Part shown: one piece after another, positions 22,094 through 53,284 of the stretch | Numbering within the stretch: position 1 is the first letter of the stretch | How the letters are laid out: each line of letters starts with the position of its first letter | Notes under the pieces: model-generated | Databases searched by the model: none | The model's input: the letters and a program-made list of their open reading frames with translations, nothing else | Told to the model about the DNA's origin: nothing | Assembly (NCBI GenBank): GCA_029262795.1 | Contig: JAJCYT010000018.1 | Span: 195,762 to 259,761 of the forward strand | Reading direction: 5' to 3' | Source of the DNA: Candidatus Fraserbacteria bacterium | Lineage (GTDB): Bacteria; Bipolaricaulota; Bipolaricaulia; RBG-16-55-9; JAJCYT01 | DNA: 64,000 bases | Made by a program: the position numbers and the translations under genes

Positions 22094-22105
22094 CAGTTCA
22101 TTCCT

Positions 22106-22956: not shown

Positions 22957-22992
22957 GTATCGATATTTTCGCGGTATGGGTCCCATCAAGCG

Positions 22993-23787: not shown

Positions 23788-24048
23788 GATTTTTCAACCC
23801 TTTCTTTAGACATTTTTGTGTTGATCATTTTCAACAACTTCAACTTACAGAGTGGATGTGAAAAGCCAGCGTTGATGCTGTGAAAATGCTGTGAAAGCGG
23901 AGACAACCACTTTCACGGCGTTCTCACAGCGTTTTCATCTCGTTCCGACAAGCACAGGTCATCATGTTATTGGTGATAAAAAGACGTCTGGCAAGATCTG
24001 TTACTAAGGATTTCCCAGACCCTGAAAAAGAGATTAAAGGAGGAACTT

Positions 24049-27220: not shown

Positions 27221-27451
27221 GTGCCTTTAATCGAATCAGACCGCCTATTTCTGACAAAGCTGGGAAAACGTATTCGGGAATTGAGAGAACAAAAGGGATT
27301 GTCCCAGGAAGCCTTTGGATTCCAGGCTGATTTACATCGAAATTATATTGGTGGAATCGAGCGTGGTGAGCGAAATGTAGCGGTCCTTAATCTCAAGAAG
27401 ATTGCTCAAGCCCTTAATGTTTCACTTGAAGAATTGTTTGAGAAAATATAA
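27221..27451 (+). CDS. XRE-family (Cro/cI-type) HTH transcriptional regulator
   Basis: LGKRIRELREQKGLSQEAFGFQADLHRNYIGGIERGERNVAVLNLKKIAQALNVSLEELF. Confidence 0.75.
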   Translation: MPLIESDRLFLTKLGKRIRELREQKGLSQEAFGFQADLHRNYIGGIERGERNVAVLNLKKIAQALNVSLEELFEKI

Positions 27452-27839
27452 CTATTCCAAGATTCAACATCCTACCAAATTGCTGTTCCACAAAATCTGC
27501 TCTCTAAGGCATCTCACAAATTTAAAAAGAGCCTTTGGCAACGGATAGTTTTTATAAAAAAGACCCAAAAGATATGGTTATACAAGAGAGAATAAAAGAG
27601 TTTCTATCATTAGGTTTTGACAAATTGTAGAATTTAGTGTATACCTGATTTGCTAGGAAACAACTTTGGGGAGTTGCTGTTGACTCTAAGGAAGATAGGG
27701 AGGAAGGGTTGGGGTTCATCATGGGGTAGTTAGCCGTTCGTTCTTAATAAATCTCTTCAAACTTTTTTTTATCACTCTATTTATCATTTTTGCTAGTAGT
27801 GACTTCATAACGCTTTCTCAAAATAACTGTCCACTATTC

Positions 27840-30800
27840 TTGAATCCAACCTTAACAATTGAGCCAACAACCGCACGTCAAGGAGAATTGTTCATTGAGC
27901 GGGGAACCGGATATTGTGCTAATACTGTTGCAACTATGTTTATCGGCATACCAAATAGTGCAACTGTCGAACAAAGAGAAATTCAAATTGACCAAAACGG
28001 CGAATTCTATATTCCTTTTGTTGTTCCCTTAAGTTATCCACTCGGGGCAGGCTGGATTGAAGTTGAAGATGTTGGAGGATTTATTAGTCCAAGGATCACA
28101 TTTACAGTCGAGCCAGTTCAAGATTCTCCCGATATTCCTGTGGTATCAAATTGCGATTTTCAGGCTCCCCCTTTGCTTGTATCTGAAGACAATGCTCCAT
28201 TGGGAAATAGAATTCCTTTGATGCTTGTTCACGGAATAACATCTGAGTGTGAACTTGGTGAACTTGAACTAAATAGAGAAGGTTGGAGAGCATTTGTCGA
28301 GTCTTTTTGGAATGAGAGCCTTGATACAAATTTCAAGCTATTTAGATTCAGATATGCAAGCTCCAAACAACACGTAAATCAATCTGCAAAACAATTGAAA
28401 GATGTTATCAATACTGATGCAGAATTATCCCAATCAAACAATATTGTTGTAGTTGCACATAGTATGGGAGGGCTTGTTACGTTAGATTACATGATCAATC
28501 AAGGTCAAGGTGACAAAATACAAAAGCTTATCTCTCTTGCTACCCCATATCAAGGAACCCCATTTGGATCCTTAGTAAAATATTTAAATGCACGCAAGAA
28601 AAGTGAAACACTAAATGACTTTGTAGATCTTTTCTGGCCAAATCTACAAGATATTCTTCAAGTTCTTAGCATTACTCCTCTTGAGCAATTAATTGAAAAT
28701 GCAAATGAGGATCTTAACAATCTTGCCTGGGGTTATGCAGGACTTTCCAATATCACTGATACCTCTTTAGATTCACTAAAATCAATCGGCAATGGAGTTT
28801 ATTCACAAAGGTATCCTATAAATATGGAATCTTATTTCAACAATGGTTATCTTGTTTCTCTTGCTAACAACCTATCAATAGACCATAAAATAAAGGCATA
28901 TTGCGGCAGTATTCCTCCTGATAATGGCTTCGACATATTAAATTCACCATCTCTAATTGATGCACTTGATATGGATCTTGTACAAGACTACTTAGCTGGT
29001 CTATTAAGCTTACTTCCTCAAGAATTTCAAAGCGATGGCATTGTTCCTAGAAGTAGTGCCGAATTTGATGGTCAGGATGTTGAAAGAAGGCTTGAGGGAT
29101 GCTTCCCAAACACTAATCATACAAATATGCCCAGTCATACCCTTGTCATTAATGCTGTATTAGAGGATCTTAGAAGAATTTGGGAGATTAACTCTGAGCC
29201 AATTCTAGTTGAAGTTGATCTTGATCTCGGTGATGGTCCCTTTGAAGTTGGGAAACTAATCAATGGATCTTTTACTATCAAGAATCAGCATACCCAGCCA
29301 ATTACCTTGAATTCCCTAACTGTTGGTGGTCGATATGATCAATTTGGACTCAATGAAATATGGGATTTTCCGCACCGAAAAAACCTGATATTGGATGCAG
29401 GAGCTACTTACACATATATAGATACATTTACTCCAACAAAGGCGGGCGAATATCATTTCTTTGTAGGCTATGAAATTGCTCCAAATCCTTGGAACACCAA
29501 TGTCCCAAACTTATCTGGTAATGTTGTAAATGCCGATATTGTAGTTTCTAATGATGTTGCCTTACCAAAGGCAGATTTAACTGTTGATTCAGTCTTTGCT
29601 CCAACTGTTGCAAAACATGGAGACTCTATTTCCGTATCCTGGAGAGCCAAGAATATAGGAACTACAAGTTCTTCATCTTTTAATAGCTTGATATCTTTAT
29701 CAATACCTCCATTTGGCACCACATATCCTCTTGGTACTTTTTCATCTAATTCCATAGGCGCAGGAGGAAACAGCAATGAGACGCAAACCATGCAGATTCC
29801 AAACAACATTCCTCCAGGCGATTATTACGTTACCGTGTTTGTGGACAGTTTGGATGCCGTTATGGAAGGGAATGAAAATAACAACATCAATAAGGCATCA
29901 AATAGAATTGCTATTATCTCCAACCAACCTGTAGCAGAACCATTTATTACGTTCCAGAAAACCCTTCGTCCATCATCTGATCCTCTGTGTAACGGTGAAA
30001 TTGCTTGTGGTCCTCAAATTGATTTAACAAGTTCTGACCCTACAGATGGATCAAGAGATGTGATCTTTCGACTAGAGGTGACCAATACAGGCGGTGCAGC
30101 AGCCACCTTTAGTTTGCTGGATCCACTTGGGAATGGCGATTTTGTTTGTGTGGAAGCAGCACAAAACCCAATGGCTGCTTGTAACATCAATAGCAATGAA
30201 TTGCGAATAGAAAGCCAAGTGGTTCAACCAAATTCGATCTGGTTTTATGATTTTCGAGCAAGATATGTGGGCAGCACTCAGGCAGATGGTGCAGTAATTC
30301 CGAATACAGCTGAAATCATTTGGATTGACAATTATTACGATGCAGCATTAGGCATTGACAATGGCCGACATGGGGCATTGTCCGATTTTGAAGATACGTT
30401 TTTGAGTAACCCTTCGGTCAATCATGTAGGTGGAATAACTTTTAGCAGCAATCCTTCTGGAAGAACACTCACTGTACAAGGCCAAACGGTTCAAACCCCT
30501 TACACGTTAGAGTGTAATCCTGGATCATTGGTTTCAGCCTCTACCAATCTTACTCAAACAGCACCCAGTCATGGCCGATATAGTTTCCGCAACTGGAGCA
30601 ATGGCAGTTTCCTTCAAAGTCTGTCAATAACATGCCCAAATGGAGGAACAACCATGACAGCTATTTATGATCTCCAGTATCAATTGATTACATCAGCCGC
30701 ACCCAATGGAACAGGCAATGTTTCTTTGAATCCTGCAATAGTTGGAAATTGGTACAATGTCGGCAGCTCAGCTCAGCTCACACCAAATCCTATCAACGGG

Positions 30801-33800
30801 CAAGAGTTCTCACATTGGAGCGATGATTGTTCAGGTACAATTCAAATTTTCACTATAACAATCACTAAGCGAATACTTTGCACAGCCAATTTCATTTTAA
30901 TGGAACCAGATTCACCATCATTGTCTGCGACTGCGATATTTACGCATCAAATCAACCTGAATTGGACAAGCATACCGGGAGCGAGTAGCTATACTATTGA
31001 ACGCAAAGATCCAGGCAGTGAGTATCTAGCCCTCTCTATGGTGAGTTCTACAAGCTATGTTGATAATTCACCTGGCCGCCCATTATTGACAAACGCTGAA
31101 TATTGCTACCGTGTTCGACCACAAGGATTTTCTCCACCAGCACCTTATTCCAATGAATACTGTCTTTATACAAGAGCTGCGACTCCAAATGCGCCTACAG
31201 TGTCCAGTCCATCTGCTATCACTTTATTTGTCACAGTCAATCCTGGGAACAACCCTACCAACACATGGTTTGCGTTGTTCAATGAAACAGCCAATTACTA
31301 TGTTTCCGGCGGTGGCGAAAACAATGGCATGAATCCGTATTGGCTTCCAGCAGCAAATTGGGGTACCACTCTGGTGCGTGCTCTGAACTCAAATACCACC
31401 TATCGATTCAAGGTGAAGGCTAGAAATGGCTCAGGCATTGAAACAGGATTTGGCCCAACAGGTTCAGGAACCACAGCCACAGGCATTACAAAACCAACCA
31501 ATATTGCTCCAGCTCACAATGCGACAGGTGTTTCATTCACCGCAACGCTCCAAGCATCAGTATTTAATGCACCACACACATTGACTCATTCGGCAACACG
31601 ATGGCAGATTCGCATAAACAGTGGAAGTTTCGATGAACCACTTTGGGACAGCCATGAATTCAATGAGAATTTGACGAGTCGAACAGTCCCTAGCCATATT
31701 TTGGAAGGTAACACAATTTATTGGTGGCGAGTCAGCTACCGTGCCTTTGATCAGAATAACACCAAAGTTTGGTCGCCTTGGTCAGATGAAACAAAGTTCA
31801 CCACTGTTGGAGCGCCTATTGGTGGAAATGTCAATCTTGCCAACACGCCATGTCCAACCTATCGCTGCAACTTAGAACGAAATGGTTTAAGCTCATATAT
31901 CGGCCCAGAAAATCCCACTCAGAAATGGAAAACCTCCATCAGGGGCGGCTTTGAAAGCCCTGTTATTGGGCTGAATGGTGAAATTTATTACACCTATGAC
32001 AATCGTCTAAGAAAAATTGATCAAGAAACTGGGAATGAAATTGCCAACTATTTGTCAGGTGATATCAGCGGAATTGCAGCTGCCACGCTTCGAGGCGATG
32101 GATTAATTTATGTATCTTCCCTTAATGAGCAACTAACTGGCACAACCAGTGCGGGGGATGTTGTCATTCAAACATCTTTAGTTGGACGACCTGACAACTC
32201 ATCACCTGCTATCGGAAGTGATGGAACTGTTTATGTTGTTACAAATCAGGGAACTTTGTATTTTATTACTCCATCTGGCGGAATTATTCGAACCAAGTCG
32301 CACAACCCAACATCAACTTCTCCCACATTGGGAACTGATGGAACCATCTATGTTCTTTCCCTTCGTGCATCAATCGAGAATGGAAAACTATATGCTTATA
32401 ATCCCAATGGTAGTCTGAAATGGGCATTTGATACAGGCGGAACAGCTCTTAATCAAAGCACACCCGCTGTTGGTCCTGATGGAACCATTCACTTTATAGG
32501 CCGAAAAGGCTTCGGTGATTATGGGATTTTTGCCGTTCGCTCTGATGGAACAGAGAAGTGGTTCAGACCATTGTCTGATTCTATAGGCACAGGGTCACCA
32601 GCAGTTGGGCCTGATGGCACGGTCTACTTTACAGCAGGTGACCTTAAGCTCTATGCACTGAACTCAGCAAATGGTAATACAATTTGGACTCATCCTTTGC
32701 CCTCATTCCCTTGGGGGGCACCTGCTATTGATGCGAATGGCACTATATATGCAACTGGTGGTGCTACTTTGCTTGCTGTGAATCCAAATGGAACTAAAAA
32801 GTGGGAGATCACACTTGACGGAAATATCTATGCATCACCTGTAATAGATCAAGATGGCACATTGTATATTGCAACGACTTCTGACTCGCTATATGCGTTT
32901 GAGAATTCAGGCAGCTCAGGTCAACAATTCACCCTGACTGTTGGCAACAATGGCAGTGGCACTGTGACCAGCAGTGATGGTTTCATCAATTGCGGTAGCA
33001 GTTGTCAAAAATCCTATGATAGTGGAACCACTGTTGTTTTGACACCAACGCCAAGCAGTGGATACACCTTCTCGCACTGGAGTGGAGATGCAGACTGTGA
33101 CGATAACCAAGTATCCATAACTGCCAATCGCACTTGTACCGCACATTTCACAATCAATTCTTACAATGTCACCGTGAATGTGGTTGGTTCAGGTAGTATT
33201 TCTTTCTCTCCTCCAGGTACAAATTGTGGCTCCAATTGCCGCACTTATGATGCAGGCACACAGGTTACTATTACAGCCAGTCCAAGTTCAGGTTATGAGT
33301 TTAGCAATTGGCCTCCAGTTGGGTGTGATTCAATCAATGGAAATCGCTGTACCACAACAGTGAATGGCAGTATCACGACTACGGCAACTTTTGTTCAGAT
33401 TTCTAACGCATCATCAAAAATCGTCTTTGACTCTCAAAGGGATGGGAATAGAGAAATTTATGCAATGAACTCAGATGGCACTAACCAAACTCGTTTAACC
33501 AGCAATAATGACTTTGATGGCGATCCTGTTTGGTCGCCAGATGGTTCGAAGATTGCTTTTATTTCGGATAGAGATGGAAATAGAGAAGTCTATGTGATGA
33601 ACGCCAATGGCACGAATCCAACTCGTCTCACGAACACTAGCGCCTTTGAGGGTAGCCCAGCATGGTCACCCGATGGAATCAAGATCGCATTCATTTCGGC
33701 AAGAGATGGGAACAATGAAGTCTATGTGATGAATGCCAATGGCTCTAACCAAACTCGATTCACTAGCAACAATGTTTTTGAGGGAGATCCAGACTGGTCA

Positions 33801-36800
33801 CCTGATGGTACTAAGATTCTCTTTGAGTCTGAGCGAGATGGAAATAGAGAAATCTATGTGATGAACGCCAATGGCACCAGTCAAATCAATTTGACTAACC
33901 ACAGTGGCTTGGATAGTAATCCAGACTGGTCACCTGATGGTACTAAGATTGCATTTCAGACAAATCGAGATGGAAACTTGGATGTCTATGTGATGAATGC
34001 CAACGGCTCAAGTCAAATTCAATTAACAACCAATTCAACTGGAGATGGGAATCCTTCTTGGTCTCCAAATGGAAGTCAAATTGCTTTCCACTCTGATCGT
34101 GATGGTGACACAGAGATTTTTGTTATGGGTGCAGGTGGGACTAATCAAACTCCATTGACGAACAACACCGCCTCAGATACAGCTCCAGACTGGACTTTGG
34201 GAGTATTGTCCGTTCCACCGCCTGCAACAGGTTTGGTTGGTGAATGGAACTTTGACGAAGCATCAGGATCCACTGCCTTGGACACATCTGGAAACAGCAA
34301 CCATGGAAGTTTCAGAAATGGAGCATCCTATACTACAGGTGTTAACGGAACTGCTTTGTTGCTTGATGGTGTAAATGATCTTGTACGTGTTGAAGATGCT
34401 CCAAGCCTAGATTTTGGGACAGGCGATTTCTCGCTTTCGGTATGGGTGAAAACAACGGCCAGTGGCAGGATGGACATCATCGGCAACAATTGGGGGTCAA
34501 GCACGGCTATTGAATTACATCTCTTTGACGAAGGCAAAGTCACCTTCCTTGGTATTGTTTCTGCTGTAGGAATATCTATTGCTGCTGACAATAAGCCCAT
34601 TAATGATGGTAAGTGGCATCATCTTGTTGCGGTGAAGGATTCTGCAAATTCAGTTGGAAGAATCTATGTGGATGGTGCATTGATTGCTAATGGCTCAGAT
34701 CAGGGTGCAACATTGAACCCTCCACAAGCATGGGCTATTGGTGCGAGAATGAATAATGGTGCATCTTCTCAAAGCCATTTCTTTAATGGCTCTATTGACG
34801 AATTAAAGATGTACAATCGCGCTTTAACTGCTCAGGAAATTCTGAATCAATGTAATGCTGTTAAACCACCCGAATTAATTTGTAGTTCATCTCCTCCACC
34901 TCCTGACCCTGCTCCAAGTCTGCCGTTCTTTGATGATTTTGAAGATGGCGACGCAAGTGATTGGACAGTCCTCGTCAAAGGTGGCGCCGCTGGACACAAT
35001 CACGGTTCACCTTCTCAAGAAGTAGAATCTTTTGGTGGATCTTATGTCTACAGTATGCAGGGAGGGGCATTCGTAGGTGGTGGCGGTGGTCGTATAGCGA
35101 TGAACGGTTCGACTGCTTGGACTGACTATACCCTCACCGCAGAAATGGAAATCATTGATACTCGTCATGGAGGAAGCCATCATGGCATAGCCGTACGTAC
35201 AAATCCCTCCAATACTTCGTACTATTCCTGCTATGTATCACACGATATCGGTGGAATCTTTGGCGGTGTTCCGTCACTCAAGGCGCTTGGCTTAGAGCGT
35301 CATGATTCAACTGAATCGTCAGTTCAGCTTGCGAACACTACAACGACTGCGGTTGGATTAACTATAGGCTACAACCAGAAAATCCTGATAAAAATGCAGG
35401 TTGAAGGCAGTCGTATTCGCTGCTGGTTTGACAATGTGCTTTTGTTCGATGAAGTTGATACAACATATCCTTCTGGAGGAATTGGTCTCGATACAGGTAG
35501 CGGTCATAATCACTATGACAATATCAGCGTTACAGAAATAAGTGGTCCGCCACCGCCACCTCCATCAGATTTGATTGCAGAATGGAAGTTTAATGAATCT
35601 TCTGGAACAACAGCTCAAGACTCATCGGGCAATGGGCATCATGGTCAACTATTCAATGGTGCCACTTTTGCTACTGGTGTTTCTGGAAATGCGTTGCAAT
35701 TAGATGGCCAAAATGACTATGTCTTGATACCAGATCACAATGATTTTGACATAACAAACCTGACGATTGAAGGCTGGATTCTCTATAACCAGATAAGACC
35801 TTCACCAAATGGCAACCAAGGGATTTTGAACAAATACCGTACTGACCAATCTAGTGAAAGTGGCTACGAAGCCTTCATCCGTGCCGGAGACGGCTATCTG
35901 GACTCAGGCTTTAAAGACAATTCTGGCAATGTAGCTGGAACGGCAGGTCCATCAACAGAAGGGCAATGGCAACATTTCGCATTCACTTATGATGGGGCAA
36001 CGGCAAGGCTCTTTGTCAATGGCGAGTTGATCAACAGCAGCGATAAGTCAATTACCATGTCAGGCAACAATCTAGATATGCTGGTTGGTGTGCTACGAGA
36101 TCAGGCCTCTAGTGTTCATCGTTATCTTGGAGGCAAGTTAGATGAACTTCGCCTATATAACAAAGCTTTAACAGGACAAGAAGTACTCGCTCGATGTAAT
36201 GCCAATAAACCCAATGAAGTTACTTGTGGAACTTCTTCACCATCTGATCCAGTCTTAACAATCGTTAAAGCTGGAAATGGTGCTGGGTTGGTGACTAGTG
36301 ATCCTTCTGGCATTGATTGTGGCGAAACTTGCGAAAAGGATTTCTCATCTGGCACAGATATAACTTTAAATCCTCAGCCAAATGCCAATGTGGTTTTCGC
36401 GGGTTGGAGTGGAGACTCAGGTTGCTCCAGTGGATCCTTTACACTCACATCCAACCTCACCTGTATTGCAACCTTCAACTCAGCGAGTGCCAGCCCAACA
36501 TCCTTGCTGCTTTCGGCTAGTAAGCGCAGTGTTATTGTGGGTAACACAGTGACCATAACAGCATCTGTCAGAGCCAATGGGAACCCTGTTGAAGATGGAA
36601 CACTCGTTGCCTTTGTGACCAAGTATGGTCTGTTTGCCAACGGTACAAGGAGCATCAATGCTCTTACAGAAAGTGGATCAGTCAGTGTTAGCTTTACGGC
36701 TAGAAAGGCCGATGCCATTACAGTATTAGCAACAGTTGGCACTGGTGCGGTTAAGGACACAATCACCGTATTCTTTAATAAATCTGGTGTTGAAGCAGAT

Positions 36801-38441
36801 CATATCACAGATCGAGACATTGATGGTGATCACAAGATGGATTTTATGAATCTTGGAGTGCCTGGGTTGAAGCGCGTGACGATAGACAATGAGTCAGGCG
36901 AACGGACCCTGACTGTTGCAAAATTCGATGATAATCCAGCAGAGGCGTCCTTTATTGCATCTGGCGGTTTCTTTGATGTTCACTTAGATGAAGCTTCCGG
37001 CGTTAATAGCGTAGAAATTGAATTTTGTCCGGCTGAATCTGGAGAGCTTGTGTACTTCTGGGATGGAGACAGTTGGACGCCCGTTTCAGATCAAGAATTT
37101 GTTGATGGCTGTATTATCGTAATGATCACAGATTCCACTTTCCCAACTTTAGAGGATTTGGAGGGCCAGTTCTTTGGAATCGGTGTGCCTTCGACAACGG
37201 GTGGCGATCCGCCAATCTGGGAAAATATTATGGCCTTCCCCACTCCAGAAAAAGCACTAGGTGAAGATCTAAATCTGGATGGCGATATTTTAGATACGGT
37301 CTTGCGATATAAAGATCTGGACACAAATGAAGTGTTCAATACAGGTATTGCTGTTTCCAGTCGGCATCGAGATGTTGATATTTATGAAGACACAATTGTG
37401 TTCGTAGAGGAATCACAATATCGAGCCAATGTTATCAGCACCTACAACGTAAAGACCAAAGTTGTCACTCGGACAGGCATCATCGGCTATCGGCCAACTA
37501 TTTATGGCAGTATTCTTTCGGTATCTGGCGATACCATCCGATTCTATGATTTGAACACAAAAGAGTTTGTTGAAACAGGTATTCCTGGACAGGCTCAAGC
37601 AATTTGGGGCAATGTGATTGCTTATCATCGTACGGCAATAAAAGGCCATCATCCCACCATTCGCTACTATGACACTGAGCGCAAAAAAGTTCTTAATACA
37701 AAGGTTGCTGGAATATTCCCTGCTATTTATGAAAACGTCATCGCCTTCACAACCCTAGAAGACATGATTGATGAAGACCTGAATGGAGATGGTGATACGA
37801 AAGACTCAGTGGTTCGTTATTATGATCTCAATTCCTTAACACTGCACAATACACGTCAAGTTGGTGCTTATCCTGCCATTTTTGAGAATCACATCGTTTT
37901 TACAACTAACAAGGAAATCCGATATTTCGACATTGAGTTACAACAGGTATTTGGTACAGGGAAACTCGGCACTGAGCCTGATATTTACGGAAATACTATT
38001 ACTTACTACTTGTGGGAGAAATGGCCACTTGAAGATTTGAACGATGATGGTGATCAAAGTGATCCGATAGTGAGGACATACGAAATTTCCGCTCAGAAAG
38101 CAGCTAGTGAATCTCAACCTTCAACTGATCTTCCATTGAGCATAGAACCTCTAAGTATTAGTAAGTTATTAGGGTATCCTAATCCTGTATTAGCAAGCCA
38201 GGTTGTTACATTTGTTGCTGAGGGTAGTGGGATCAAAGAAATGAACGTGAGTGTTTATGATCTAAGTGGACAAAAAGTATTCGACAGCGGCTTCAGTCCA
38301 CAAAAGTCCCTTATTTGGGATACGCTAAATAATAACGGCCAAAAGGTTGCAAATGGTGTCTACCTTTACTTGATTACAGTGAAAGGATCTGAAGATCAAG
38401 TTGTTAGAAGCAAGATTAGGAAACTTGTAATTCTACGATGA
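27840..38441 (+). CDS. giant (3533 aa) multidomain surface/secreted protein with T9SS C-terminal sorting domain
   Basis: Domains read from translation in N-to-C order: alpha/beta-hydrolase with lipase GxSxG (VVAHSMGG) / CARDB-like / Fn3-like / PQQ-type beta-propeller repeats (DGTIY..) / three InlB-B-like repeats / six tandem PD40 (TolB-like) repeats / two LamG-like (LamG_3) domains / DUF1080-like jellyroll / Big-like / C-terminal YPNP...VYDLSGQKV...ANGVYLYLITV...KLVIL = Por/T9SS CTD. TTG start with a stop 12 nt upstream and no signal peptide. Confidence 0.8.
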   Translation: MNPTLTIEPTTARQGELFIERGTGYCANTVATMFIGIPNSATVEQREIQIDQNGEFYIPFVVPLSYPLGAGWIEVEDVGGFISPRITFTVEPVQDSPDIPVVSNCDFQAPPLLVSEDNAPLGNRIPLMLVHGITSECELGELELNREGWRAFVESFWNESLDTNFKLFRFRYASSKQHVNQSAKQLKDVINTDAELSQSNNIVVVAHSMGGLVTLDYMINQGQGDKIQKLISLATPYQGTPFGSLVKYLNARKKSETLNDFVDLFWPNLQDILQVLSITPLEQLIENANEDLNNLAWGYAGLSNITDTSLDSLKSIGNGVYSQRYPINMESYFNNGYLVSLANNLSIDHKIKAYCGSIPPDNGFDILNSPSLIDALDMDLVQDYLAGLLSLLPQEFQSDGIVPRSSAEFDGQDVERRLEGCFPNTNHTNMPSHTLVINAVLEDLRRIWEINSEPILVEVDLDLGDGPFEVGKLINGSFTIKNQHTQPITLNSLTVGGRYDQFGLNEIWDFPHRKNLILDAGATYTYIDTFTPTKAGEYHFFVGYEIAPNPWNTNVPNLSGNVVNADIVVSNDVALPKADLTVDSVFAPTVAKHGDSISVSWRAKNIGTTSSSSFNSLISLSIPPFGTTYPLGTFSSNSIGAGGNSNETQTMQIPNNIPPGDYYVTVFVDSLDAVMEGNENNNINKASNRIAIISNQPVAEPFITFQKTLRPSSDPLCNGEIACGPQIDLTSSDPTDGSRDVIFRLEVTNTGGAAATFSLLDPLGNGDFVCVEAAQNPMAACNINSNELRIESQVVQPNSIWFYDFRARYVGSTQADGAVIPNTAEIIWIDNYYDAALGIDNGRHGALSDFEDTFLSNPSVNHVGGITFSSNPSGRTLTVQGQTVQTPYTLECNPGSLVSASTNLTQTAPSHGRYSFRNWSNGSFLQSLSITCPNGGTTMTAIYDLQYQLITSAAPNGTGNVSLNPAIVGNWYNVGSSAQLTPNPINGQEFSHWSDDCSGTIQIFTITITKRILCTANFILMEPDSPSLSATAIFTHQINLNWTSIPGASSYTIERKDPGSEYLALSMVSSTSYVDNSPGRPLLTNAEYCYRVRPQGFSPPAPYSNEYCLYTRAATPNAPTVSSPSAITLFVTVNPGNNPTNTWFALFNETANYYVSGGGENNGMNPYWLPAANWGTTLVRALNSNTTYRFKVKARNGSGIETGFGPTGSGTTATGITKPTNIAPAHNATGVSFTATLQASVFNAPHTLTHSATRWQIRINSGSFDEPLWDSHEFNENLTSRTVPSHILEGNTIYWWRVSYRAFDQNNTKVWSPWSDETKFTTVGAPIGGNVNLANTPCPTYRCNLERNGLSSYIGPENPTQKWKTSIRGGFESPVIGLNGEIYYTYDNRLRKIDQETGNEIANYLSGDISGIAAATLRGDGLIYVSSLNEQLTGTTSAGDVVIQTSLVGRPDNSSPAIGSDGTVYVVTNQGTLYFITPSGGIIRTKSHNPTSTSPTLGTDGTIYVLSLRASIENGKLYAYNPNGSLKWAFDTGGTALNQSTPAVGPDGTIHFIGRKGFGDYGIFAVRSDGTEKWFRPLSDSIGTGSPAVGPDGTVYFTAGDLKLYALNSANGNTIWTHPLPSFPWGAPAIDANGTIYATGGATLLAVNPNGTKKWEITLDGNIYASPVIDQDGTLYIATTSDSLYAFENSGSSGQQFTLTVGNNGSGTVTSSDGFINCGSSCQKSYDSGTTVVLTPTPSSGYTFSHWSGDADCDDNQVSITANRTCTAHFTINSYNVTVNVVGSGSISFSPPGTNCGSNCRTYDAGTQVTITASPSSGYEFSNWPPVGCDSINGNRCTTTVNGSITTTATFVQISNASSKIVFDSQRDGNREIYAMNSDGTNQTRLTSNNDFDGDPVWSPDGSKIAFISDRDGNREVYVMNANGTNPTRLTNTSAFEGSPAWSPDGIKIAFISARDGNNEVYVMNANGSNQTRFTSNNVFEGDPDWSPDGTKILFESERDGNREIYVMNANGTSQINLTNHSGLDSNPDWSPDGTKIAFQTNRDGNLDVYVMNANGSSQIQLTTNSTGDGNPSWSPNGSQIAFHSDRDGDTEIFVMGAGGTNQTPLTNNTASDTAPDWTLGVLSVPPPATGLVGEWNFDEASGSTALDTSGNSNHGSFRNGASYTTGVNGTALLLDGVNDLVRVEDAPSLDFGTGDFSLSVWVKTTASGRMDIIGNNWGSSTAIELHLFDEGKVTFLGIVSAVGISIAADNKPINDGKWHHLVAVKDSANSVGRIYVDGALIANGSDQGATLNPPQAWAIGARMNNGASSQSHFFNGSIDELKMYNRALTAQEILNQCNAVKPPELICSSSPPPPDPAPSLPFFDDFEDGDASDWTVLVKGGAAGHNHGSPSQEVESFGGSYVYSMQGGAFVGGGGGRIAMNGSTAWTDYTLTAEMEIIDTRHGGSHHGIAVRTNPSNTSYYSCYVSHDIGGIFGGVPSLKALGLERHDSTESSVQLANTTTTAVGLTIGYNQKILIKMQVEGSRIRCWFDNVLLFDEVDTTYPSGGIGLDTGSGHNHYDNISVTEISGPPPPPPSDLIAEWKFNESSGTTAQDSSGNGHHGQLFNGATFATGVSGNALQLDGQNDYVLIPDHNDFDITNLTIEGWILYNQIRPSPNGNQGILNKYRTDQSSESGYEAFIRAGDGYLDSGFKDNSGNVAGTAGPSTEGQWQHFAFTYDGATARLFVNGELINSSDKSITMSGNNLDMLVGVLRDQASSVHRYLGGKLDELRLYNKALTGQEVLARCNANKPNEVTCGTSSPSDPVLTIVKAGNGAGLVTSDPSGIDCGETCEKDFSSGTDITLNPQPNANVVFAGWSGDSGCSSGSFTLTSNLTCIATFNSASASPTSLLLSASKRSVIVGNTVTITASVRANGNPVEDGTLVAFVTKYGLFANGTRSINALTESGSVSVSFTARKADAITVLATVGTGAVKDTITVFFNKSGVEADHITDRDIDGDHKMDFMNLGVPGLKRVTIDNESGERTLTVAKFDDNPAEASFIASGGFFDVHLDEASGVNSVEIEFCPAESGELVYFWDGDSWTPVSDQEFVDGCIIVMITDSTFPTLEDLEGQFFGIGVPSTTGGDPPIWENIMAFPTPEKALGEDLNLDGDILDTVLRYKDLDTNEVFNTGIAVSSRHRDVDIYEDTIVFVEESQYRANVISTYNVKTKVVTRTGIIGYRPTIYGSILSVSGDTIRFYDLNTKEFVETGIPGQAQAIWGNVIAYHRTAIKGHHPTIRYYDTERKKVLNTKVAGIFPAIYENVIAFTTLEDMIDEDLNGDGDTKDSVVRYYDLNSLTLHNTRQVGAYPAIFENHIVFTTNKEIRYFDIELQQVFGTGKLGTEPDIYGNTITYYLWEKWPLEDLNDDGDQSDPIVRTYEISAQKAASESQPSTDLPLSIEPLSISKLLGYPNPVLASQVVTFVAEGSGIKEMNVSVYDLSGQKVFDSGFSPQKSLIWDTLNNNGQKVANGVYLYLITVKGSEDQVVRSKIRKLVILR
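33421..34190 (+). repeat. six tandem ~132-bp (44-aa) PD40 beta-propeller-blade repeats inside the giant gene
   Basis: Repeated R[DE]GN.E[VI]YVMNANG[TS]NQT.LT...F.GDP.WSPDG.KIAF units with strong nt similarity. Confidence 0.7.
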
Positions 38442-38675: not shown

Positions 38676-41600
38676 ATGAACAGACAAGATACCGATCATA
38701 CATTTTTTACTAACGATAAAAATCAGACACTTCTAGACAGATTTAAATCAACATTAATAGACACAGAGTTTTTTGATATGCTCGTTGGCTATTTTAGATC
38801 TAGTGGATTTCATCAACTTCATGAAAGTATTGGCTCTATTTCAAAAACGCGAATACTTGTTGGCTTAAGCATTGACGCCAAAACTTACTATGCAATTAAT
38901 ACAACTGGAAAACAACCCATGCTTGAATTTGAGTCGCATAGATATGCCAAGTCGGAATTTCAAAGAAAACTCATAGATGAAGTTGAAAACTCTGAAGATT
39001 CGGATGAAAACCTGGAGCTAGGCCTAAAAAAATTCATTGAGTTTCTGCAAACAAATTGCCCCGATTACAACAATGATCTTGAAAAGGATGGAAATGGGAA
39101 GAAACTTGAAATTCGTGTTTTTCCCTCACGAAACATTCATGCCAAAGTATATATTGGCAGGTTTTTTCCTGATGATAGAGATTATGGCTTCGTCATAACA
39201 GGATCAAGCAACTTTTCTTATCGAGGTCTAGTTGCCAACCGTGAATTTAATGTGGAGCTTCGCCAAAGGCAGGATGTGCAATATGCTCTAGATCAGTTTG
39301 AAGAACTTTGGACACAAGCTGTTGATGTTTCTGAAGATTTTGTTGAAACAACCAAGAATAAAACATGGCTTAACGATACAATTTCTCCATACGAACTCTA
39401 CTTGAAATTAATTTACGAATATATGCAGGAAGATATTAATCTTAAGGATGATATGGAGATTTTTCTTCCAGACAGATTTTTACTACTAAAGTACCAACAG
39501 CAGGCTGTTCAACAAGCATTAAAAAAGCTTAACGAGCATAAAGGTGTCTTCCTTGCAGATGTCGTAGGGCTTGGTAAAACTTTTATCACCGCGCAACTGT
39601 TGCAGCAAATCAGAGGTAGAATACTAGTTATTTGCCCCCCCACATTAAAGGGATATTGGGAAGAAAGCCTACACGATTTTCGTGTTCCTGCACGGGTCGA
39701 ATCTCTAGGGAAACTTGAAAAGGTTATTAACTTTGGTTTGAATCGCTTTGATTATATAGTTGTCGATGAGGCTCATCGATTTCGTAATGAAGCAACCCGT
39801 TCATATGCTGATCTACTTGATATTTGTCGAGATAAGAAAGTTATTCTTGTGACTGCAACACCTATTAACAATAAAATTGATGATTTATTTTCTCAACTCA
39901 AGCTTTTTCAGGTACCTAAAAATTCTACTATTCCAGGAATTCCTAACCTGGAAAGGTTTTTTGCATCCTTACGTAAGCGTTTTAAGGGGATTGATCGTAC
40001 AGATCCAAATTATAAGCTCATTACAAAAGAAGTTTCACATGAAATTCGTGAGCGTATTTTAAAACATGTGATGGTTAGAAGAACTCGCACTGACGTTTTG
40101 ACCTATTTTAAGGAAGACCTCATTAGCCAAAACCTTTTCTTCCCTGAATTTCAAAACCCTCGACGGATTATTTACACATTTGAAAATAAACTAGAGAAAA
40201 CCTTCAATCAAACAATCAACTTGCTCCATGAGTTTCGATATGCCAGATATATCCCTCTTCTCTATTATGCTGGTAGTAAACGTCTTTCAGAGTTTGAACT
40301 GCAACAGCAACGCAATGTTGGAGGCTTCATGAAAGGGATTTTGATTAAGCGGCTAGAAAGCAGTTTCCATGCATTCAGAAAAAGTGTTGGCCGTTTCATT
40401 GAATCTTATGAACAATTTATTGGAATGCTATCCTCTGGAACAGTTTACATTAGCAAAAATGTTGATGTGTACGACTTGATTGACAGTGATGATATTGAAA
40501 CTCTCGAAAGACTCGTTGAAGAAGAAAAAGTACAGAAATACTCTTCAAAAGATTTTCGTGAAGGGTTCATTAAGGACTTGGAGTACGATCTTGAAACTCT
40601 CAAAAAGGTTGAGTTGCTTTGGCATGACGTTGAGCAAGACCCCAAAATCGATTCTTTTGTTAATCAGCTTGTTAGCGATCCTACTTTAAAAAATAGTCGG
40701 CTTGTTATTTTTACTGAATCAAAAGAAACGGGTGATTACCTATTTGATCAACTTAATCAAAAGTTTGCTGGGAAAGTTATATTTTTCAGTAGCTTAGGAG
40801 GTCGAGTTGGGAAAGTACCTGTTACTCATAACCCAACAACTGCTCGAGAGTTGATACAAAGCGCTTTTGATCCGAATCAGAGAAAAACAAATGAAGATTT
40901 GAGAATTCTCATTTCTACTGACATTCTTTCAGAGGGGATTAACCTACATCAGGCAAATGTACTCATAAACTATGACTTACCTTGGAATCCAACTCGTGTC
41001 TTACAAAGAGCTGGACGCATCAATAGACTTGGCACAAAGCATCCTGAAATTTTTATTTACAACTTTTTTCCAACAAGTCATGCTGATACCCATTTAGGCC
41101 TTGAAGCTAACATCACCCATAAGATTCAAATGTTCCATGACATTCTTGGTGAAGATGCAAAGTACCTTTCTGATGGTGAAGAAATTGGTAGTCAAGAGTT
41201 ATTTGATAGCTTAAATAAAAAGCAAACATACACTGGAGAAGATGATGAAGGGGATTCTGAATTAATGTACCTGGAGATGATGAGGAAACTCCGAGATGAA
41301 AACCCAAAATTATTTGAGAGAATAAAAAGATTACCCAAAAAGGCTCGCTCTGGCCGTAAGGCACAAAATCTTAAGCTTGATCAACTTGTAACTTTTTTTC
41401 GCGTAGGATCTTTAAAAAAGTTTTATCTTAATGAGGGTGAACAAAGCTCTGAAATTACTTTTTTTGATGCCGCCAATTTACTCGCTTGTTCTCCAGATAC
41501 TCCTAGACATCAGATACCGCCAAACTATTATCATTTGCTAAACACGAATAAACAAAGGTTTGCAGAAGATATCTTTCAAGATGATACTCAAGTTGGAAAC

Positions 41601-41918: not shown

Positions 41919-41922
41919 ACTC

Positions 41923-50677: not shown

Positions 50678-51783
50678 ATAAATCAACCAGTGTTAAAAAT
50701 AGTGGAACTAAAAGCCCTCTAGTTACACACCCCCCGCAAATTCCAAAAAATGTAACCAGCAAGACCTTATTAATGGGCTTAGATAGCTTGTATCTAGGCT
50801 GTTTTGGTCAACTGCATCGAAGATTTCAAAGGCTAAATGATTCAAAAATAAAAATTTCAGATGTTTTATTTACAGCCACAGATATTAGATTTGGGCCATA
50901 TAAGTATGTGTTTGATAGTGGTAGAATGACAATTGGATTCAATAATAAATACAAATATGCATCTTCACCTGAAGTCTATATTCGACTAAAATCTCAATTC
51001 ATTTTGTCAAAAGGTTTAGCGAATGCGTATGAAAGCGCAATAAAGATAGCCGATAAACTGTTAGTTTCACGAACTAAACGAGATACAGTGCTTCGCGTAG
51101 ATTTGTTTATGGATATTCTTTGGGATAAAGCGTTCAAAGCTGCTGATGTAGATAAATTTGTTTCTAGAGCAAGACAAAAGAACTCACATTCTTCTAATAA
51201 TGAAATAACTGGCTTCAGTTTTGGAAAATCTCAAATTAGAGCCAGAGTTTATAATAAAACCCTAGAAAAGAATAAAGAAAAATCACATTTACTTTATCAG
51301 GCTTGGAATATTCCAAAAAAATCTAAGTCAAATGTATGGAGATTAGAATTTCAATTACGAGGAGTGGCATTGCGCAAGTTTGATGTTCATGAGTTTTATG
51401 ACCTGATTTACGAAGCAAATAGAATTTGGAATTACTGCTGCCAAAAATGGCTTTCCATGAGGAAACTGAATAATAAAAGAACAACTCGTAGATCTCTCAC
51501 AGCTTTTTGGAAGACTGTTGTTGATTCAAACTTCGAATTTAATCTTGAGATCGAAGATGAAGAAAGATTTGAACAATTAACCAAGCAATATGCAGAAGGA
51601 AATTTGAATGAGGTTACAGATGATAGTCATATTGTTAATACTATTTCAGGCATGGTAAAGAACCATGCTATTTCACATGGCTATGCTACAAATGAGGAAG
51701 CGCTTGACAACTTGTTACCTAAAATAGAAAAGAAGTTAAGCATCATAAGAAAAAACAAAAAAAGAGGTGAATTAAAGCCATGA
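50674..51783 (+). CDS. Rep_trans-like rolling-circle replication initiator (putative)
   Basis: IRARVYNKTLE and WRLEFQLRG resemble the conserved vRiYdK / RiE motifs of Rep_trans initiators from ICE/IME and phage. Confidence 0.55.
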   Translation: MNKSTSVKNSGTKSPLVTHPPQIPKNVTSKTLLMGLDSLYLGCFGQLHRRFQRLNDSKIKISDVLFTATDIRFGPYKYVFDSGRMTIGFNNKYKYASSPEVYIRLKSQFILSKGLANAYESAIKIADKLLVSRTKRDTVLRVDLFMDILWDKAFKAADVDKFVSRARQKNSHSSNNEITGFSFGKSQIRARVYNKTLEKNKEKSHLLYQAWNIPKKSKSNVWRLEFQLRGVALRKFDVHEFYDLIYEANRIWNYCCQKWLSMRKLNNKRTTRRSLTAFWKTVVDSNFEFNLEIEDEERFEQLTKQYAEGNLNEVTDDSHIVNTISGMVKNHAISHGYATNEEALDNLLPKIEKKLSIIRKNKKRGELKP

Positions 51784-53243
51784 AAGTGCTTGCGTATGCA
51801 CGTGTTTCAACTCAAGATCAGGCTAAGGAAGGATACAGTGTTCCTGCTCAAATAAGAGCAATCAGAGAATCTGCGAAAAGAAATAACCTTCAAATTGTGC
51901 GTGAATTTACTGAGGCCGAATCTGCAAAAGCCGTTGGCCGAAAGAGCTTTCACAAAATGGTCAAATTTATCAAAGCAAATCCAGGAAATGTTGATGGGAT
52001 TATAGCACATAAGGTAGATCGTTTATCTAGGAATTTCAAAGACCTTCTAACACTCAAGGAACTAAATATGAAACTAATATTTGTGTTAGAAGAATTTCCC
52101 GACAATGCCATGGGCAGATTTATCCTTGATATGCGTGTTGCTCAATCAGCTTTTTATAGTGGCAATCTTTCAGAGGATGTAATTAAGGGAATGACTGAAA
52201 AGGCAAAACAAGGACTATTCCCTTCCCGTGCAGCACTAGGATACATCAATGTGACCAGAAACGGGAAAAGAATCATTGAACCTGATCCCGAAATTGCTCC
52301 GTTAATAAAGACTGCTTTCAAGTTATATTCAACTGGCAGATATTCACTTAATCAGATTAGGAAATTATGTGGGGAACAAGGCCTAGTTTATCGCCAAAGT
52401 AGAAAACCTATCAGCAAAAGCACTTTGGATAGTATGCTCAAAAGGCCTTTATATTATGGTGGTTTTTACTGGAGTGGAAATCTCTATCGTGGTACTCATG
52501 ATCCCATAATTTCCAAAACACTCTTTGATAAAGTTCAACAAGTGCGCAAAGATCGCTCAAAACCAAAAAGAAAGTCATGGCGTTTCGCTTTTTCAGGTCT
52601 TCTTGTGTGTGGTTATTGTGGATGTGCAATTACCGCAGAAATGAAGAAAGGCAAGTACACTTATTATCATTGCACTGGATATAAAGGTAAGTGTGATCAA
52701 AAATGGCTGAGAGAAGAAGTTTTGTCCGAAATTTTGGGGGAAATGCTTTTAGAAATACGCTTTGGTCAATCTAAGATTGATTGGATTGAAGATGTGTTGA
52801 TTTCCAAGCACTCTATTGATTTGCAGCAACAAGAAACTTCAATGCGAGCTTTAAAGTCACAAGCTAATAGAGTCCAAAATCGTTTAGAAAAGATATATAT
52901 CGATAAATTAGATGGCGTAGTTTCTGAAGAAACTTGGGTATCGAAATCAAAAGAATGGGAGAAAGAAGAACAAGAAATACTAACTCGCATTAAAGCAATG
53001 GAAAATATTGGCCCAAATTTTATAGACAAGGGTATCCAGATTTTAGAACTGGCGAATAACGCCTACAACTCGTATTTAAATCAGAATATTCATGAAAGGA
53101 GGAGATTACTTGATTGTGTACTTTCGAACTGCGAAATGTTAGGTGAAAAGCTAGTGCCAAACTACAAAAAACCATTTGACATCCTAGCAAAATCGAGAAG
53201 TTGTACGGATTGGCTGGGAGAGAGGGATTCGAACCCCCACTAA
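51780..53243 (+). CDS. large serine recombinase (integrase)
   Basis: N-terminal resolvase catalytic domain MKVLAYARVSTQDQ (Ser nucleophile), recombinase domain, Cys-rich zinc ribbon CGYCGC...YYHC and coiled-coil; last ~11 codons overlap tRNA-Gln. Confidence 0.85.
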   Translation: MKVLAYARVSTQDQAKEGYSVPAQIRAIRESAKRNNLQIVREFTEAESAKAVGRKSFHKMVKFIKANPGNVDGIIAHKVDRLSRNFKDLLTLKELNMKLIFVLEEFPDNAMGRFILDMRVAQSAFYSGNLSEDVIKGMTEKAKQGLFPSRAALGYINVTRNGKRIIEPDPEIAPLIKTAFKLYSTGRYSLNQIRKLCGEQGLVYRQSRKPISKSTLDSMLKRPLYYGGFYWSGNLYRGTHDPIISKTLFDKVQQVRKDRSKPKRKSWRFAFSGLLVCGYCGCAITAEMKKGKYTYYHCTGYKGKCDQKWLREEVLSEILGEMLLEIRFGQSKIDWIEDVLISKHSIDLQQQETSMRALKSQANRVQNRLEKIYIDKLDGVVSEETWVSKSKEWEKEEQEILTRIKAMENIGPNFIDKGIQILELANNAYNSYLNQNIHERRRLLDCVLSNCEMLGEKLVPNYKKPFDILAKSRSCTDWLGERDSNPH

Positions 53244-53284
53244 CCGGGTCAGAGCCGGTCGTCCTACCATTAGACGATCTCCCA
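53211..53284 (-). tRNA. tRNA-Gln (anticodon CTG)
   Basis: Reverse complement TGGGAGATCGTCTAATGGTAGGACGACCGGCTCTGACCCGGTTAGTGGGGGTTCGAATCCCTCTCTCCCAGCCA folds as cloverleaf: 7-bp acceptor, GTTCGAATC T-loop, anticodon loop CU-CUG-AC, encoded CCA. Confidence 0.85.

What the first reader, a model, noticed from the sequence alone, without database searches (positions are those of the whole stretch)
27840..38441. 3533-aa mosaic surface protein with T9SS sorting signal but no signal peptide, carried on the mobile element
The 10.6-kb gene strings together a lipase-type alpha/beta hydrolase, CARDB, Fn3, PQQ and PD40 propellers, InlB-B-like repeats, two LamG lectin-like domains, a DUF1080 jellyroll and a Bacteroidota-type Por/T9SS C-terminal domain. 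Its ORF opens with TTG just 12 nt after a stop and has no Sec signal peptide, which a T9SS cargo requires. The start may be mis-assembled or truncated, translation may use an unusual start, or the 5' end may have been lost on integration. The T9SS CTD also hints at the phylum of the host or donor (FCB group).
Basis: partly seen in the sequence, partly recalled or inferred. Interest (0 to 1): 0.55.

Follow-up and report, generated by a model that had tools for sequence, protein, structure and literature searches.

The report
Giant secreted protein with miscalled start
This 10.6-kb gene encodes an ordinary giant secreted surface protein: its signal peptide lies in frame just upstream of the called start, and only a one-base frame offset from the ribosome-binding site and start codons makes it look signal-less.

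Summary
The ORF 27840-38441 (3533 aa) and most of its domain list are real. The anomaly that made it interesting is largely an ORF-calling artefact.

- **Upstream stop:** the in-frame stop is TAG 27696-98, 141 nt upstream, not 12 nt.
- **Signal peptide:** the 47 open codons in between contain no ATG/GTG/TTG but encode a classic signal peptide (…SRSFLINLFK-LFFITLFIIFA-SS|D).
- **First domain:** homology to the first folded domain begins exactly at the TTG codon.
- **Start signals:** a Shine-Dalgarno GGGAGG, a TTG 5 nt later (27709) and an ATG (27721) sit one base out of frame and stop after six codons (ATG GGG TAG). One extra G in either G4 run gives an unbroken 3573-3577-aa precursor.
- **Sequence reliability:** an independent Logan assembly shows the same G4, so the offset is probably real. 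It could be a recent 1-nt deletion, recoding or a non-AUG start.
- **C-terminal domain:** it is a genuine T9SS type-A-like fold (closest to PorU and PorZ). However, the host and the nearest homologues are labelled Bipolaricaulota/Acetothermia, not FCB, and those homologues carry normal signal peptides.
- **Location:** the gene lies in a low-GC3 block that ends at a serine recombinase next to tRNA-Gln.

Interest is low to moderate.

The parts
27696..27698 (+). True in-frame upstream stop (TAG) of the giant ORF's reading frame
27698..27703 (+). Shine-Dalgarno-like GGGAGG
   Evidence: Host genes in the window carry AGGAGG/GGGAGG 5-9 nt before their ATG.
27709..27729 (+). Six-codon mini-ORF in the +1 frame, TTG GGG TTC ATC ATG GGG TAG. 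It holds the only canonical start codons near the Shine-Dalgarno site: TTG 5 nt after it and ATG at 27721.
   Evidence: Inserting one G after 27714 or 27726 gives an uninterrupted ORF of 3577 or 3573 aa.
27723..27726 (+). G4 run, the most likely site of the 1-nt frame offset (a second G4 run lies at 27711-27714)
   Evidence: The run is identical in Logan contig SRR15505519_21796.
27699..27839 (+). 47 open in-frame codons with no ATG/GTG/TTG that encode the signal peptide and a linker. The n-region is ..VVSRSFLINLFK, the h-region LFFITLFIIFA is at 27762-27794, and the c-region is A-S-S with predicted cleavage after 27800.
27840..38441 (+). ORF as called (TTG start, 3533 aa), the mature part of the giant multidomain surface protein
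27840..28118 (+). First folded domain. It is a beta-sandwich-type repeat domain found 2-19 times in other giant proteins, and homology begins exactly at the TTG codon.
   Evidence: matches start at query residue 40-41, and residue 41 corresponds to nt 27840.
28212..28673 (+). Lipase-type alpha/beta hydrolase (PGAP1/LCAT/DUF7379-like) with nucleophile motif AHSMG
   Evidence: Homologues are about 30% identical lipase-family proteins.
29571..29891 (+). CARDB domain
32541..33005 (+). PQQ/BamB-like beta-propeller
33618..34193 (+). TolB-like PD40 propeller (5 repeats); both Logan contigs break here
   Evidence: The contig ends are at 33816 and 33921.
34368..34841 (+). Laminin_G_3 (concanavalin-like lectin) domain 1
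35691..36185 (+). Laminin_G_3 domain 2; the DUF1080/3-keto-disaccharide hydrolase hit covers the same stretch
37167..38138 (+). C-terminal 'GGDPPIW ... DLNGDGD' beta-propeller module shared with Bipolaricaulota-labelled and archaeal surface proteins
38175..38438 (+). T9SS type-A-like C-terminal domain (YPNP ... ANGVYLYLITV ... KIRKLVILR)
   Evidence: TIGR04183 scores 26.5 and 35.6 bits against a cut-off of 23; the family profile hits PorU (6za2, E 9e-7) and PorZ (5m11, E 4e-5); the model has pLDDT 85.5, and its top fold matches are PorU, PorZ and the RemA/NucA CTDs.
27221..27451 (+). XRE-family HTH regulator directly upstream on the same strand
51780..53243 (+). Large serine recombinase at the right end of the low-GC3 block; its last 11 codons overlap the tRNA
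53211..53284 (-). tRNA-Gln(CTG), the point where synteny with related genomes stops (integration hot spot)

Best explanation
The gene encodes a Sec-exported giant mosaic cell-surface protein. It combines a lipase-like esterase with Ig-like, lectin-like and propeller domains, and ends in a T9SS type-A-like CTD that most likely acts as its sorting or anchoring signal.

Its real 5' end is upstream of the called TTG. A Shine-Dalgarno GGGAGG (27698-703) is followed by TTG 27709 and ATG 27721. The signal peptide is encoded at about 27730-27800.

In the sequence as assembled, the start codons and the signal-peptide ORF are one nucleotide out of register. The most economical cause is a missing G in one of two G4 runs. 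ORF callers therefore fall back on the first in-frame TTG, which is simply the first leucine of the first folded domain.

- **Shown:** the open frame, the signal-peptide-like sequence, the out-of-frame SD and start codons, the domain boundary at the TTG, identity of the site in a second assembly, and the CTD homology and fold.
- **Inferred:** the offset is a genuine recent 1-nt deletion (an 'off' or newly inactivated allele) rather than an error, and the CTD is functional for sorting in this non-FCB lineage.
For: - The frame is open from 27699 and encodes an n-h-c signal peptide. The joint shuffle probability is 0.26%.
- There is no SD before TTG 27840, whereas host genes carry strong SD sites.
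- SD-N5-TTG...ATG GGG TAG lies in the +1 frame, and a single G insertion gives a 3573 or 3577 aa ORF with one terminal stop.
- Homology of the first domain starts at the residue encoded by 27840.
- Almost all full-length homologues of the C-terminal module begin with a signal peptide. Examples are P0155, P0164, P0207, and the L028 gene once read across its scaffold gap.
- T9SS cargo need a Sec signal peptide plus a CTD (PMC8754138).
- The 5' region is 100% identical in an independent Logan assembly.
- The 3533 downstream codons contain no disruption.
Against: - No canonical start codon is in frame, so the protein may not be made at all from this allele.
- Reads were not available. Both assemblies probably derive from the same sequencing runs, so a systematic error is not fully excluded.
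- No close homologue of the N-terminal 500 aa exists to show the ancestral start.
- T-rich DNA tends to encode hydrophobic residues, although the shuffle control accounts for this.
- SignalP could not be run.
Confidence: 0.75

Rival explanations
1. Non-canonical initiation, with no frameshift needed. Translation would start in frame at a near-cognate codon such as ATA 27747, giving MNLFKLFFITLFIIFASS|D, or at ATC 27771 or ATT 27786. The signal peptide is then made from the sequence as it stands.
For: ATA 27747 would give a textbook short signal peptide. The sequence is identical in two assemblies, and the ORF is otherwise intact.
Against: No SD-like motif precedes ATA, ATC or ATT, whereas host genes rely on strong SD sites. 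The only SD is positioned for the out-of-frame TTG and ATG. From general knowledge, ATA, ATC and ATT starts are very rare in bacteria.
Confidence: 0.1
2. Recoding or switching. Ribosomes would start at TTG 27709 or ATG 27721 and slip -1 on G-GGG with UAG in the A site. Alternatively, the G-run (or the T8 run at 27763-70) changes length between cells and switches the adhesin on and off.
For: tRNA-Gly can re-pair perfectly one base back (G GGG UAG), and a slow stop codon occupies the A site. Homopolymer tracts lie in the leader. From general knowledge, surface adhesins are typical phase-variable genes.
Against: From general knowledge, G4 is far shorter than tracts known to phase-vary. No downstream RNA structure is present (z-score -0.40). 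No conserved relatives exist to show conservation of the site. No length variants were seen.
Confidence: 0.08
3. Sequencing or assembly error. The true genome has G5 (or another 1-nt difference), and the gene is an entirely ordinary signal peptide + CTD gene.
For: One base in a homopolymer restores a perfect 3573 or 3577 aa ORF behind a proper SD and start.
Against: The Logan contig of SRR15505519, made with a different assembler, is 100% identical over 6963 nt including the run. Long error-free k-mer contigs imply accurate short reads, in which G4 indels are rare (inference).
Confidence: 0.12
4. The gene would be a signal-less T9SS cargo brought in by a mobile element from an FCB-group (Bacteroidota-type) donor, truncated at its 5' end, with TTG 27840 as the real start.
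For: The CTD is a true T9SS type A relative. The gene sits in a low-GC3 block that ends at a serine recombinase and a tRNA.
Against: - The signal peptide is present in frame.
- The stop '12 nt upstream' is out of frame.
- The closest homologues of the propeller + CTD module are Bipolaricaulota/Acetothermia-labelled, including a chromosomal gene of a sister species at 65% identity.
- The gene's own upstream region has an SD, which Bacteroidota do not use (general knowledge).
Confidence: 0.04

Closest known systems
T9SS type A CTD cargo proteins of Bacteroidota (for example P. gingivalis RgpB, PorU and PorZ; F. johnsoniae RemA and NucA)
   Same: The architecture is N-terminal Sec signal peptide, functional domains, then an approximately 80-residue C-terminal beta-sandwich. 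TIGR04183 is passed. The family profile and the predicted fold match PorU, PorZ and the CTDs seen in SprA translocon complexes. The motifs YPNP, GVYLY and K-x-x-V-I-L-R are present.
   Different: The host lineage is labelled Bipolaricaulota, outside the FCB superphylum to which T9SS is considered specific (PMC8754138). Most family members score just below the TIGR04183 cut-off. No T9SS machinery gene was seen or could be searched for. The start codon is out of frame.
Bipolaricaulota/Acetothermia 'GGDPPIW propeller + CTD' surface proteins (P0155, P0154, P0164, P0208, P0212)
   Same: They are 52-65% identical over the last 420-680 residues and share the same CTD ending ...KLV(I/V)LR. They carry signal peptides and sit in chromosomal contexts.
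   Different: Those proteins are 600-2000 aa with different N-terminal passenger domains. The window protein adds about 3000 aa of other modules and has no close relative for its first 500 aa.
Archaeal homologues of the same propeller module (Theionarchaea, Methanofastidiosia)
   Same: They have the same propeller module preceded by a signal peptide.
   Different: They end in a transmembrane helix plus a basic tail instead of a CTD. The C-terminal position is therefore an interchangeable anchor slot, which supports a sorting or anchoring role for the CTD (inference).
tRNA-adjacent genomic islands mobilised by large serine recombinases and carrying defence cargo
   Same: The recombinase has Resolvase, Recombinase and Zn-ribbon domains and lies at the island edge next to tRNA-Gln. 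GC3 is low. The cargo includes a Type IIG restriction-modification enzyme, an HKD-Snf2 helicase, a GmrSD-like protein and an ATPase.
   Different: The left end and att sites could not be defined. A 10.6-kb surface-protein gene is unusual cargo.

Membership tests
T9SS type A CTD cargo | C-terminal type A sorting domain recognised by the curated model (TIGR04183 / PF18962) | tested here: met
   TIGR04183 scores 26.5 bits (whole protein) and 35.6 bits (isolated CTD) against a cut-off of 23. Pfam PF18962 scores 20-25.4 and PF13585 21.6-26.7, both below their cut-off of 27.
T9SS type A CTD cargo | CTD adopts the beta-sandwich fold of solved T9SS CTDs | tested here: met
   The AlphaFold model has pLDDT 85.5. 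The best PDB fold matches are PorU 6za2, PorZ 5m11, the RemA-CTD 8gl6_D and the NucA CTD 8glk_D. The sequence profile hits PorU at E 9e-7.
T9SS type A CTD cargo | N-terminal Sec signal peptide | tested here: inconclusive
   A signal peptide is encoded in frame at 27730-27800, but no in-frame ATG/GTG/TTG precedes it. The SD and start codons are 1 nt out of frame.
T9SS type A CTD cargo | Host encodes the T9SS machinery (PorK/L/M/N, Sov/SprA, PorU, PorV) | not testable with these tools
   Only 64 kb of the 282-kb contig is available. None of the window genes or the neighbours of homologues is a T9SS component.
T9SS type A CTD cargo | Organism belongs to the FCB superphylum | tested here: not met
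   The nearest named relatives of cytochrome b, GGT and the C-terminal module are Bipolaricaulota/Acetothermia. Host genes use strong SD sites. Bipolaricaulota is outside the FCB group in NCBI taxonomy. The assignment rests on labels of MAG homologues, not on a phylogeny.
Integrative island with large serine recombinase | Recombinase with Resolvase + Recombinase + Zn-ribbon domains at the island edge | tested here: met
   (ORF 51780-53243).
Integrative island with large serine recombinase | Insertion relative to related genomes at a defined target | tested here: met
   Synteny with two relatives ends at 53204-53210, the 3' end of tRNA-Gln. Relative L025 keeps an 88.7%-identical recombinase remnant at the same place.
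Integrative island with large serine recombinase | Both ends (attL and attR) defined, so that the giant gene is demonstrably inside | tested here: inconclusive
   There is no tRNA repeat or convincing att-like repeat and no empty site in relatives. Only composition places the gene inside: its GC3 is 0.34, against 0.26-0.31 for the island genes and 0.46-0.68 for the host.
Lipase-type alpha/beta hydrolase (PGAP1/LCAT-like) | Pfam domain above threshold and a nucleophile elbow G/A-x-S-x-G | tested here: met
   PGAP1 scores 33.1 bits (cut-off 24.3) and LCAT 32.5 bits (cut-off 21). The motif AHSMG lies at residue 253 counted from 27699. The Asp and His of the triad were not mapped.
Programmed -1 ribosomal frameshift site | Slippery sequence plus a stimulatory element, conserved in relatives | tested here: not met
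   G GGG UAG allows re-pairing, but there is no stable downstream structure (z-score -0.40) and no relatives to test conservation.

The most novel reading that the evidence does not exclude
A non-FCB lineage (Bipolaricaulota/Acetothermia) may use PorU/PorZ-like type A CTDs as a real C-terminal sorting or anchoring signal. That would imply a T9SS-like or otherwise unknown CTD-recognising pathway outside the FCB superphylum. In that case the giant gene's one-base start offset could be a deliberate on/off or recoding switch for a costly 3500-aa adhesin carried on a mobile island.
Probability: 0.15. Interest if true: 0.65.

Novelty: new member of a known kind. Interest (0 to 1): 0.3.

Why it matters
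Practically, this is a caution about gene calling. A giant secreted protein looks signal-less only because the caller took the first in-frame TTG, while the signal peptide sits in a start-less in-frame extension.

Biologically, the gene itself is an ordinary mosaic surface protein. It may be freshly inactivated or switched off by a one-base offset at its start.

The more interesting by-product is that a coherent family of signal peptide + propeller + T9SS-like CTD proteins is native to Bipolaricaulota-labelled genomes. T9SS is described as FCB-specific. If those CTDs are functional sorting signals, CTD-dependent surface attachment would extend beyond the FCB superphylum.

Tried and rejected
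- **N-terminal homologues:** I looked for close homologues of the N-terminal 500-600 aa to see the ancestral start. The best were only about 30% identical lipase-domain hits. Nothing turned up in GTDB genomes or in JGI metagenomes with an exact DNA pattern allowing G4-G6.
- **Representative search:** it found only internal repeat copies of the first domain. This fixed the domain boundary but not the start.
- **Frameshift signals:** the promoter and terminator scan and the RNA fold of the leader gave nothing above shuffles.
- **Island left end:** I searched for a tRNA repeat or att-like repeats. The only hit was a 20/23 direct match at 24052-74, which lies beyond a host-like gene and is probably chance. 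Relatives offer no empty site.
- **Literature:** searches for the SRA runs and for T9SS in Bipolaricaulota/Acetothermia returned nothing relevant.
- **Lipoprotein signal:** rejected, because QNNC does not fit a lipobox.
- **5' exon lost on integration:** rejected, because the region 27452-27698 has stops in all frames and the signal peptide is complete.
Full report
**Observation.** The + strand ORF 27840..38441 (TTG start, 3533 aa) exists.

Residues below are counted from 27699:
- a lipase-type alpha/beta hydrolase (PGAP1/LCAT/DUF7379; nucleophile motif AHSMG at residue 253)
- CARDB
- divergent InlB B-repeats
- a PQQ/BamB-like propeller
- five PD40 repeats (TolB-like)
- two Laminin_G_3 domains
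- a C-terminal T9SS type A sorting domain, which passes TIGR04183 (26.5 bits in the whole protein, 35.6 bits alone, cut-off 23)

Two details are weaker. Fn3 is sub-threshold, although an fn3-like Ig_Rha78A_N hit passes. The DUF1080 hit covers the same residues as the second LamG.

**The 5' end.** The statement that the TTG lies 12 nt after a stop is wrong.
- The TAA at 27824-26 is out of frame.
- In the ORF's frame the preceding stop is TAG 27696-98.
- The 47 codons from 27699 to 27839 are open. They contain no ATG, GTG or TTG, which is why every ORF caller, including the one used for the Logan contigs, starts at 27840.

These codons read GGRVGVHHGVVSRSFLINLFK-LFFITLFIIFA-SS-DFITLSQNNCPLF. This gives:
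- a basic n-region
- an 11-residue hydrophobic core (mean Kyte-Doolittle 3.04)
- small residues at -3 and -1 (A-S-S)

In 20,000 dinucleotide-preserving shuffles of the 141 nt, an open frame occurred in 8.8%, an equally hydrophobic 11-mer in 1.6%, and both together in 0.26%.

A profile-free search of 1.8 billion representatives shows where the first folded domain begins. It is a repeat-type domain found 2-19 times in other giant proteins. Homology to it starts at query residue 40-41, the residue encoded by 27840. The TTG is therefore the first leucine of the first domain, preceded by a signal peptide and a short linker.

**Where translation signals are.**
- Host genes in the window have strong Shine-Dalgarno sites 5-9 nt before ATG. 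Nothing of the kind precedes TTG 27840.
- GGGAGG lies at 27698-27703. It is followed after 5 nt by TTG (27709) and later by ATG (27721).
- Both start codons are in the +1 frame, which reads TTG GGG TTC ATC ATG GGG TAG.
- Inserting a single G in either G4 run (27711-14 or 27723-26) joins these starts to the signal peptide. The result is one uninterrupted ORF of 3577 or 3573 aa beginning MG(VHHG)VVSRSFLINLFKLFFITLFIIFASSD.
- The RNA around the site folds no better than shuffles (z-score -0.40), so nothing points to a programmed frameshift signal.

**Is the offset real?**
- A Logan contig of run SRR15505519, assembled independently, is 100% identical to the window over 6963 nt including both G runs.
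- The second run's contig stops at 27358 and is uninformative.
- Reads could not be inspected.
- The remaining 3533 codons carry no disruption. If this is a deletion it is recent, or the gene is still expressed by low-level slippage or non-canonical initiation. In-frame ATA 27747 would give MNLFKLFFITLFIIFASS|D but has no SD.

**Relatives.** The first 500 aa have no close homologue. The best hits are 31% identical and confined to the lipase domain. Nothing was found in GTDB genomes or by an exact DNA pattern in JGI metagenomes.

The last 560 aa do have close relatives:
- P0155 is 600 aa and 65% identical. It is a chromosomal gene, lying between iPGM and isocitrate dehydrogenase, in a 3.2-Mb genome whose GGT is 89% identical to the host's.
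- P0154 is 52-58% identical.
- Many further proteins are labelled Candidatus Bipolaricaulota, Bipolaricaulia or Acetothermia. One of these, P0164, is in assembly GCA_025994685.1.

They share a 'GGDPPIW...DLNGDGD' propeller followed by a CTD ending ...ANGVYLYV...KLV(I/V)LR. Almost all full-length members begin with a clear signal peptide. P0154 only appeared to lack one because its gene is split by a scaffold gap. The upstream part begins MFLYKGLMVLAKLVLVMLLFIGLSQFISSVATA.

In archaeal homologues the same propeller is followed by a transmembrane helix and a basic tail instead of the CTD. The C-terminal position is therefore an interchangeable anchor slot.

**The CTD.**
- A profile of the family's CTDs hits P. 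gingivalis PorU (6za2, E 9e-7) and PorZ (5m11, E 4e-5).
- The AlphaFold model (pLDDT 85.5) finds PorU, PorZ and the RemA and NucA CTDs bound to the SprA translocon as top fold matches.
- Most family members score just under the TIGR04183 cut-off. P0155 and the window protein pass.

It is therefore a genuine, somewhat divergent, type A CTD.

**Host and the FCB inference.**
- Cytochrome b is closest to a Bipolaricaulota MAG (64%), then to 'Thermotogae', Fraserbacteria and Gemmatimonadota MAGs.
- The named relatives of GGT are Bipolaricaulota and Bipolaricaulia.
- NCBI taxonomy places this phylum outside the FCB group.
- The literature describes T9SS as FCB-specific, with cargo that need a Sec signal peptide plus a CTD (PMC8754138).
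- I found no paper linking T9SS to Bipolaricaulota or Acetothermia.

The CTD therefore does not indicate an FCB host or donor, because the module is native to the host's own phylum. Whether that phylum has T9SS-like machinery could not be tested with the tools available.

**Mobile element.**
- GC3 drops from 0.46-0.68 in the flanks to 0.26-0.41 between 24.7k and 53.2k. The giant gene's GC3 is 0.34.
- The block ends with a large serine recombinase (51780-53243). Its last 11 codons overlap tRNA-Gln(CTG) at 53211-53284.
- Synteny with two related genomes stops exactly at the tRNA's 3' end. One relative keeps an 88.7%-identical recombinase remnant there.
- In both relatives the region beyond the tRNA holds other large surface proteins.
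- The block also carries an HKD-Snf2 helicase, a Type IIG restriction-modification enzyme, an AriA/mad3-like ATPase and a GmrSD-like protein.
- The left end could not be defined.

Calling the gene 'carried on the mobile element' is therefore supported by composition and context, but not proven.

**Verdict.** This is an ordinary giant Sec + CTD surface protein, and its apparent lack of a signal peptide comes from a one-base register problem at the start. The likelihoods I assign, which need not sum to one, are:

| Explanation | Likelihood |
|---|---|
| Real, recent 1-nt deletion | about one half |
| Sequencing or assembly error | about 0.12 |
| Non-canonical in-frame start | about 0.1 |
| Slippage or phase switching | about 0.08 |
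| TTG 27840 is the true start | below 0.05 |

The side observation that a T9SS-like CTD family is native to a non-FCB candidate phylum is the only part with some novelty potential.

Noticed in passing
window 51780-53284: The large serine recombinase ORF runs 33 nt into tRNA-Gln(CTG), which is on the opposite strand. Synteny with two related genomes ends exactly at the tRNA 3' end (53204-53210). One relative (L025:2853-3037) keeps an 88.7%-identical recombinase remnant next to the same tRNA. This suggests a recurrent serine-recombinase integration hot spot at a tRNA, a target type more usual for tyrosine integrases.
   Followed up: partly
window 38676-49112: The island carries a defence cluster. 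It comprises an HKD(PLD)+Snf2 helicase (PADLOC C3a139 / DrmD-like), a Type IIG restriction-modification enzyme (1036 bits), an AriA/mad3-like ATPase and a GmrSD_N + Schlafen-AlbA_2 protein (PDC-M55C / HEC-05-like). A Rep_trans-like protein follows at 50674-51783.
   Followed up: partly
window 37167-38438; proteins P0154-P0273: The 'GGDPPIW...DLNGDGD' beta-propeller is a widespread surface module with interchangeable C-terminal anchors. Bipolaricaulota-labelled proteins carry a T9SS-like CTD. Archaeal proteins (Theionarchaea, Methanofastidiosia) carry a TM helix plus KRK tail. A third group ends in a hydrophobic helix plus an arginine-rich tail (GGLSLALLALAGVALGRRLLS).
   Followed up: partly
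L022:13002-19322 and L025:4002-7127: In two related genomes the region beyond tRNA-Gln carries different large surface proteins (beta-helix/CARDB, and a choice-of-anchor Q domain with dockerin-like C-termini). The locus therefore looks like a hypervariable surface-protein site across the lineage.
   Followed up: no
window 27763-27770: A T8 homopolymer lies inside the signal-peptide coding region (CTT TTT TTT). It is currently in frame but is a more slippage-prone tract than the G4 runs.
   Followed up: no
window 24052-24074 vs 53166-53188: A 20/23 direct repeat (AAAAAACNATTTGNCATCNTAGC) scores above all 100 shuffled controls (15.5 against a maximum of 14). It lies left of a gene with host-like GC3, so it is probably chance rather than an att site.
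   Followed up: partly
window 33816-33921: The Logan contigs of SRR15505519 break inside the PD40 repeat region of the giant gene. A contig of SRR15505518 ends at 27358, inside the XRE gene. These may be repeat-induced breaks or strain-variation break points.
   Followed up: no
window 471-3945 and 18537-24480: The host flank encodes a DOMON-Rieske-cytochrome b cluster that is syntenic with Fraserbacteria and Gemmatimonadota MAGs. It also encodes several AhpC/TSA-type thiol peroxidases, a multihaem cytochrome c7-like protein and a weak MamS/MamX-like protein. This is an aerobic or redox-active gene set that is unusual for classical acetogenic Bipolaricaulota.
   Followed up: no
L028:6592-12547: The closest full-length relative of the C-terminal part (P0154) is annotated as an 848-aa signal-less protein. 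It is in fact the tail of a gene of about 2000 aa that is split by a scaffold N-gap and has a normal signal peptide. This is a second example of an artefactual 'signal-less' CTD protein.
   Followed up: yes
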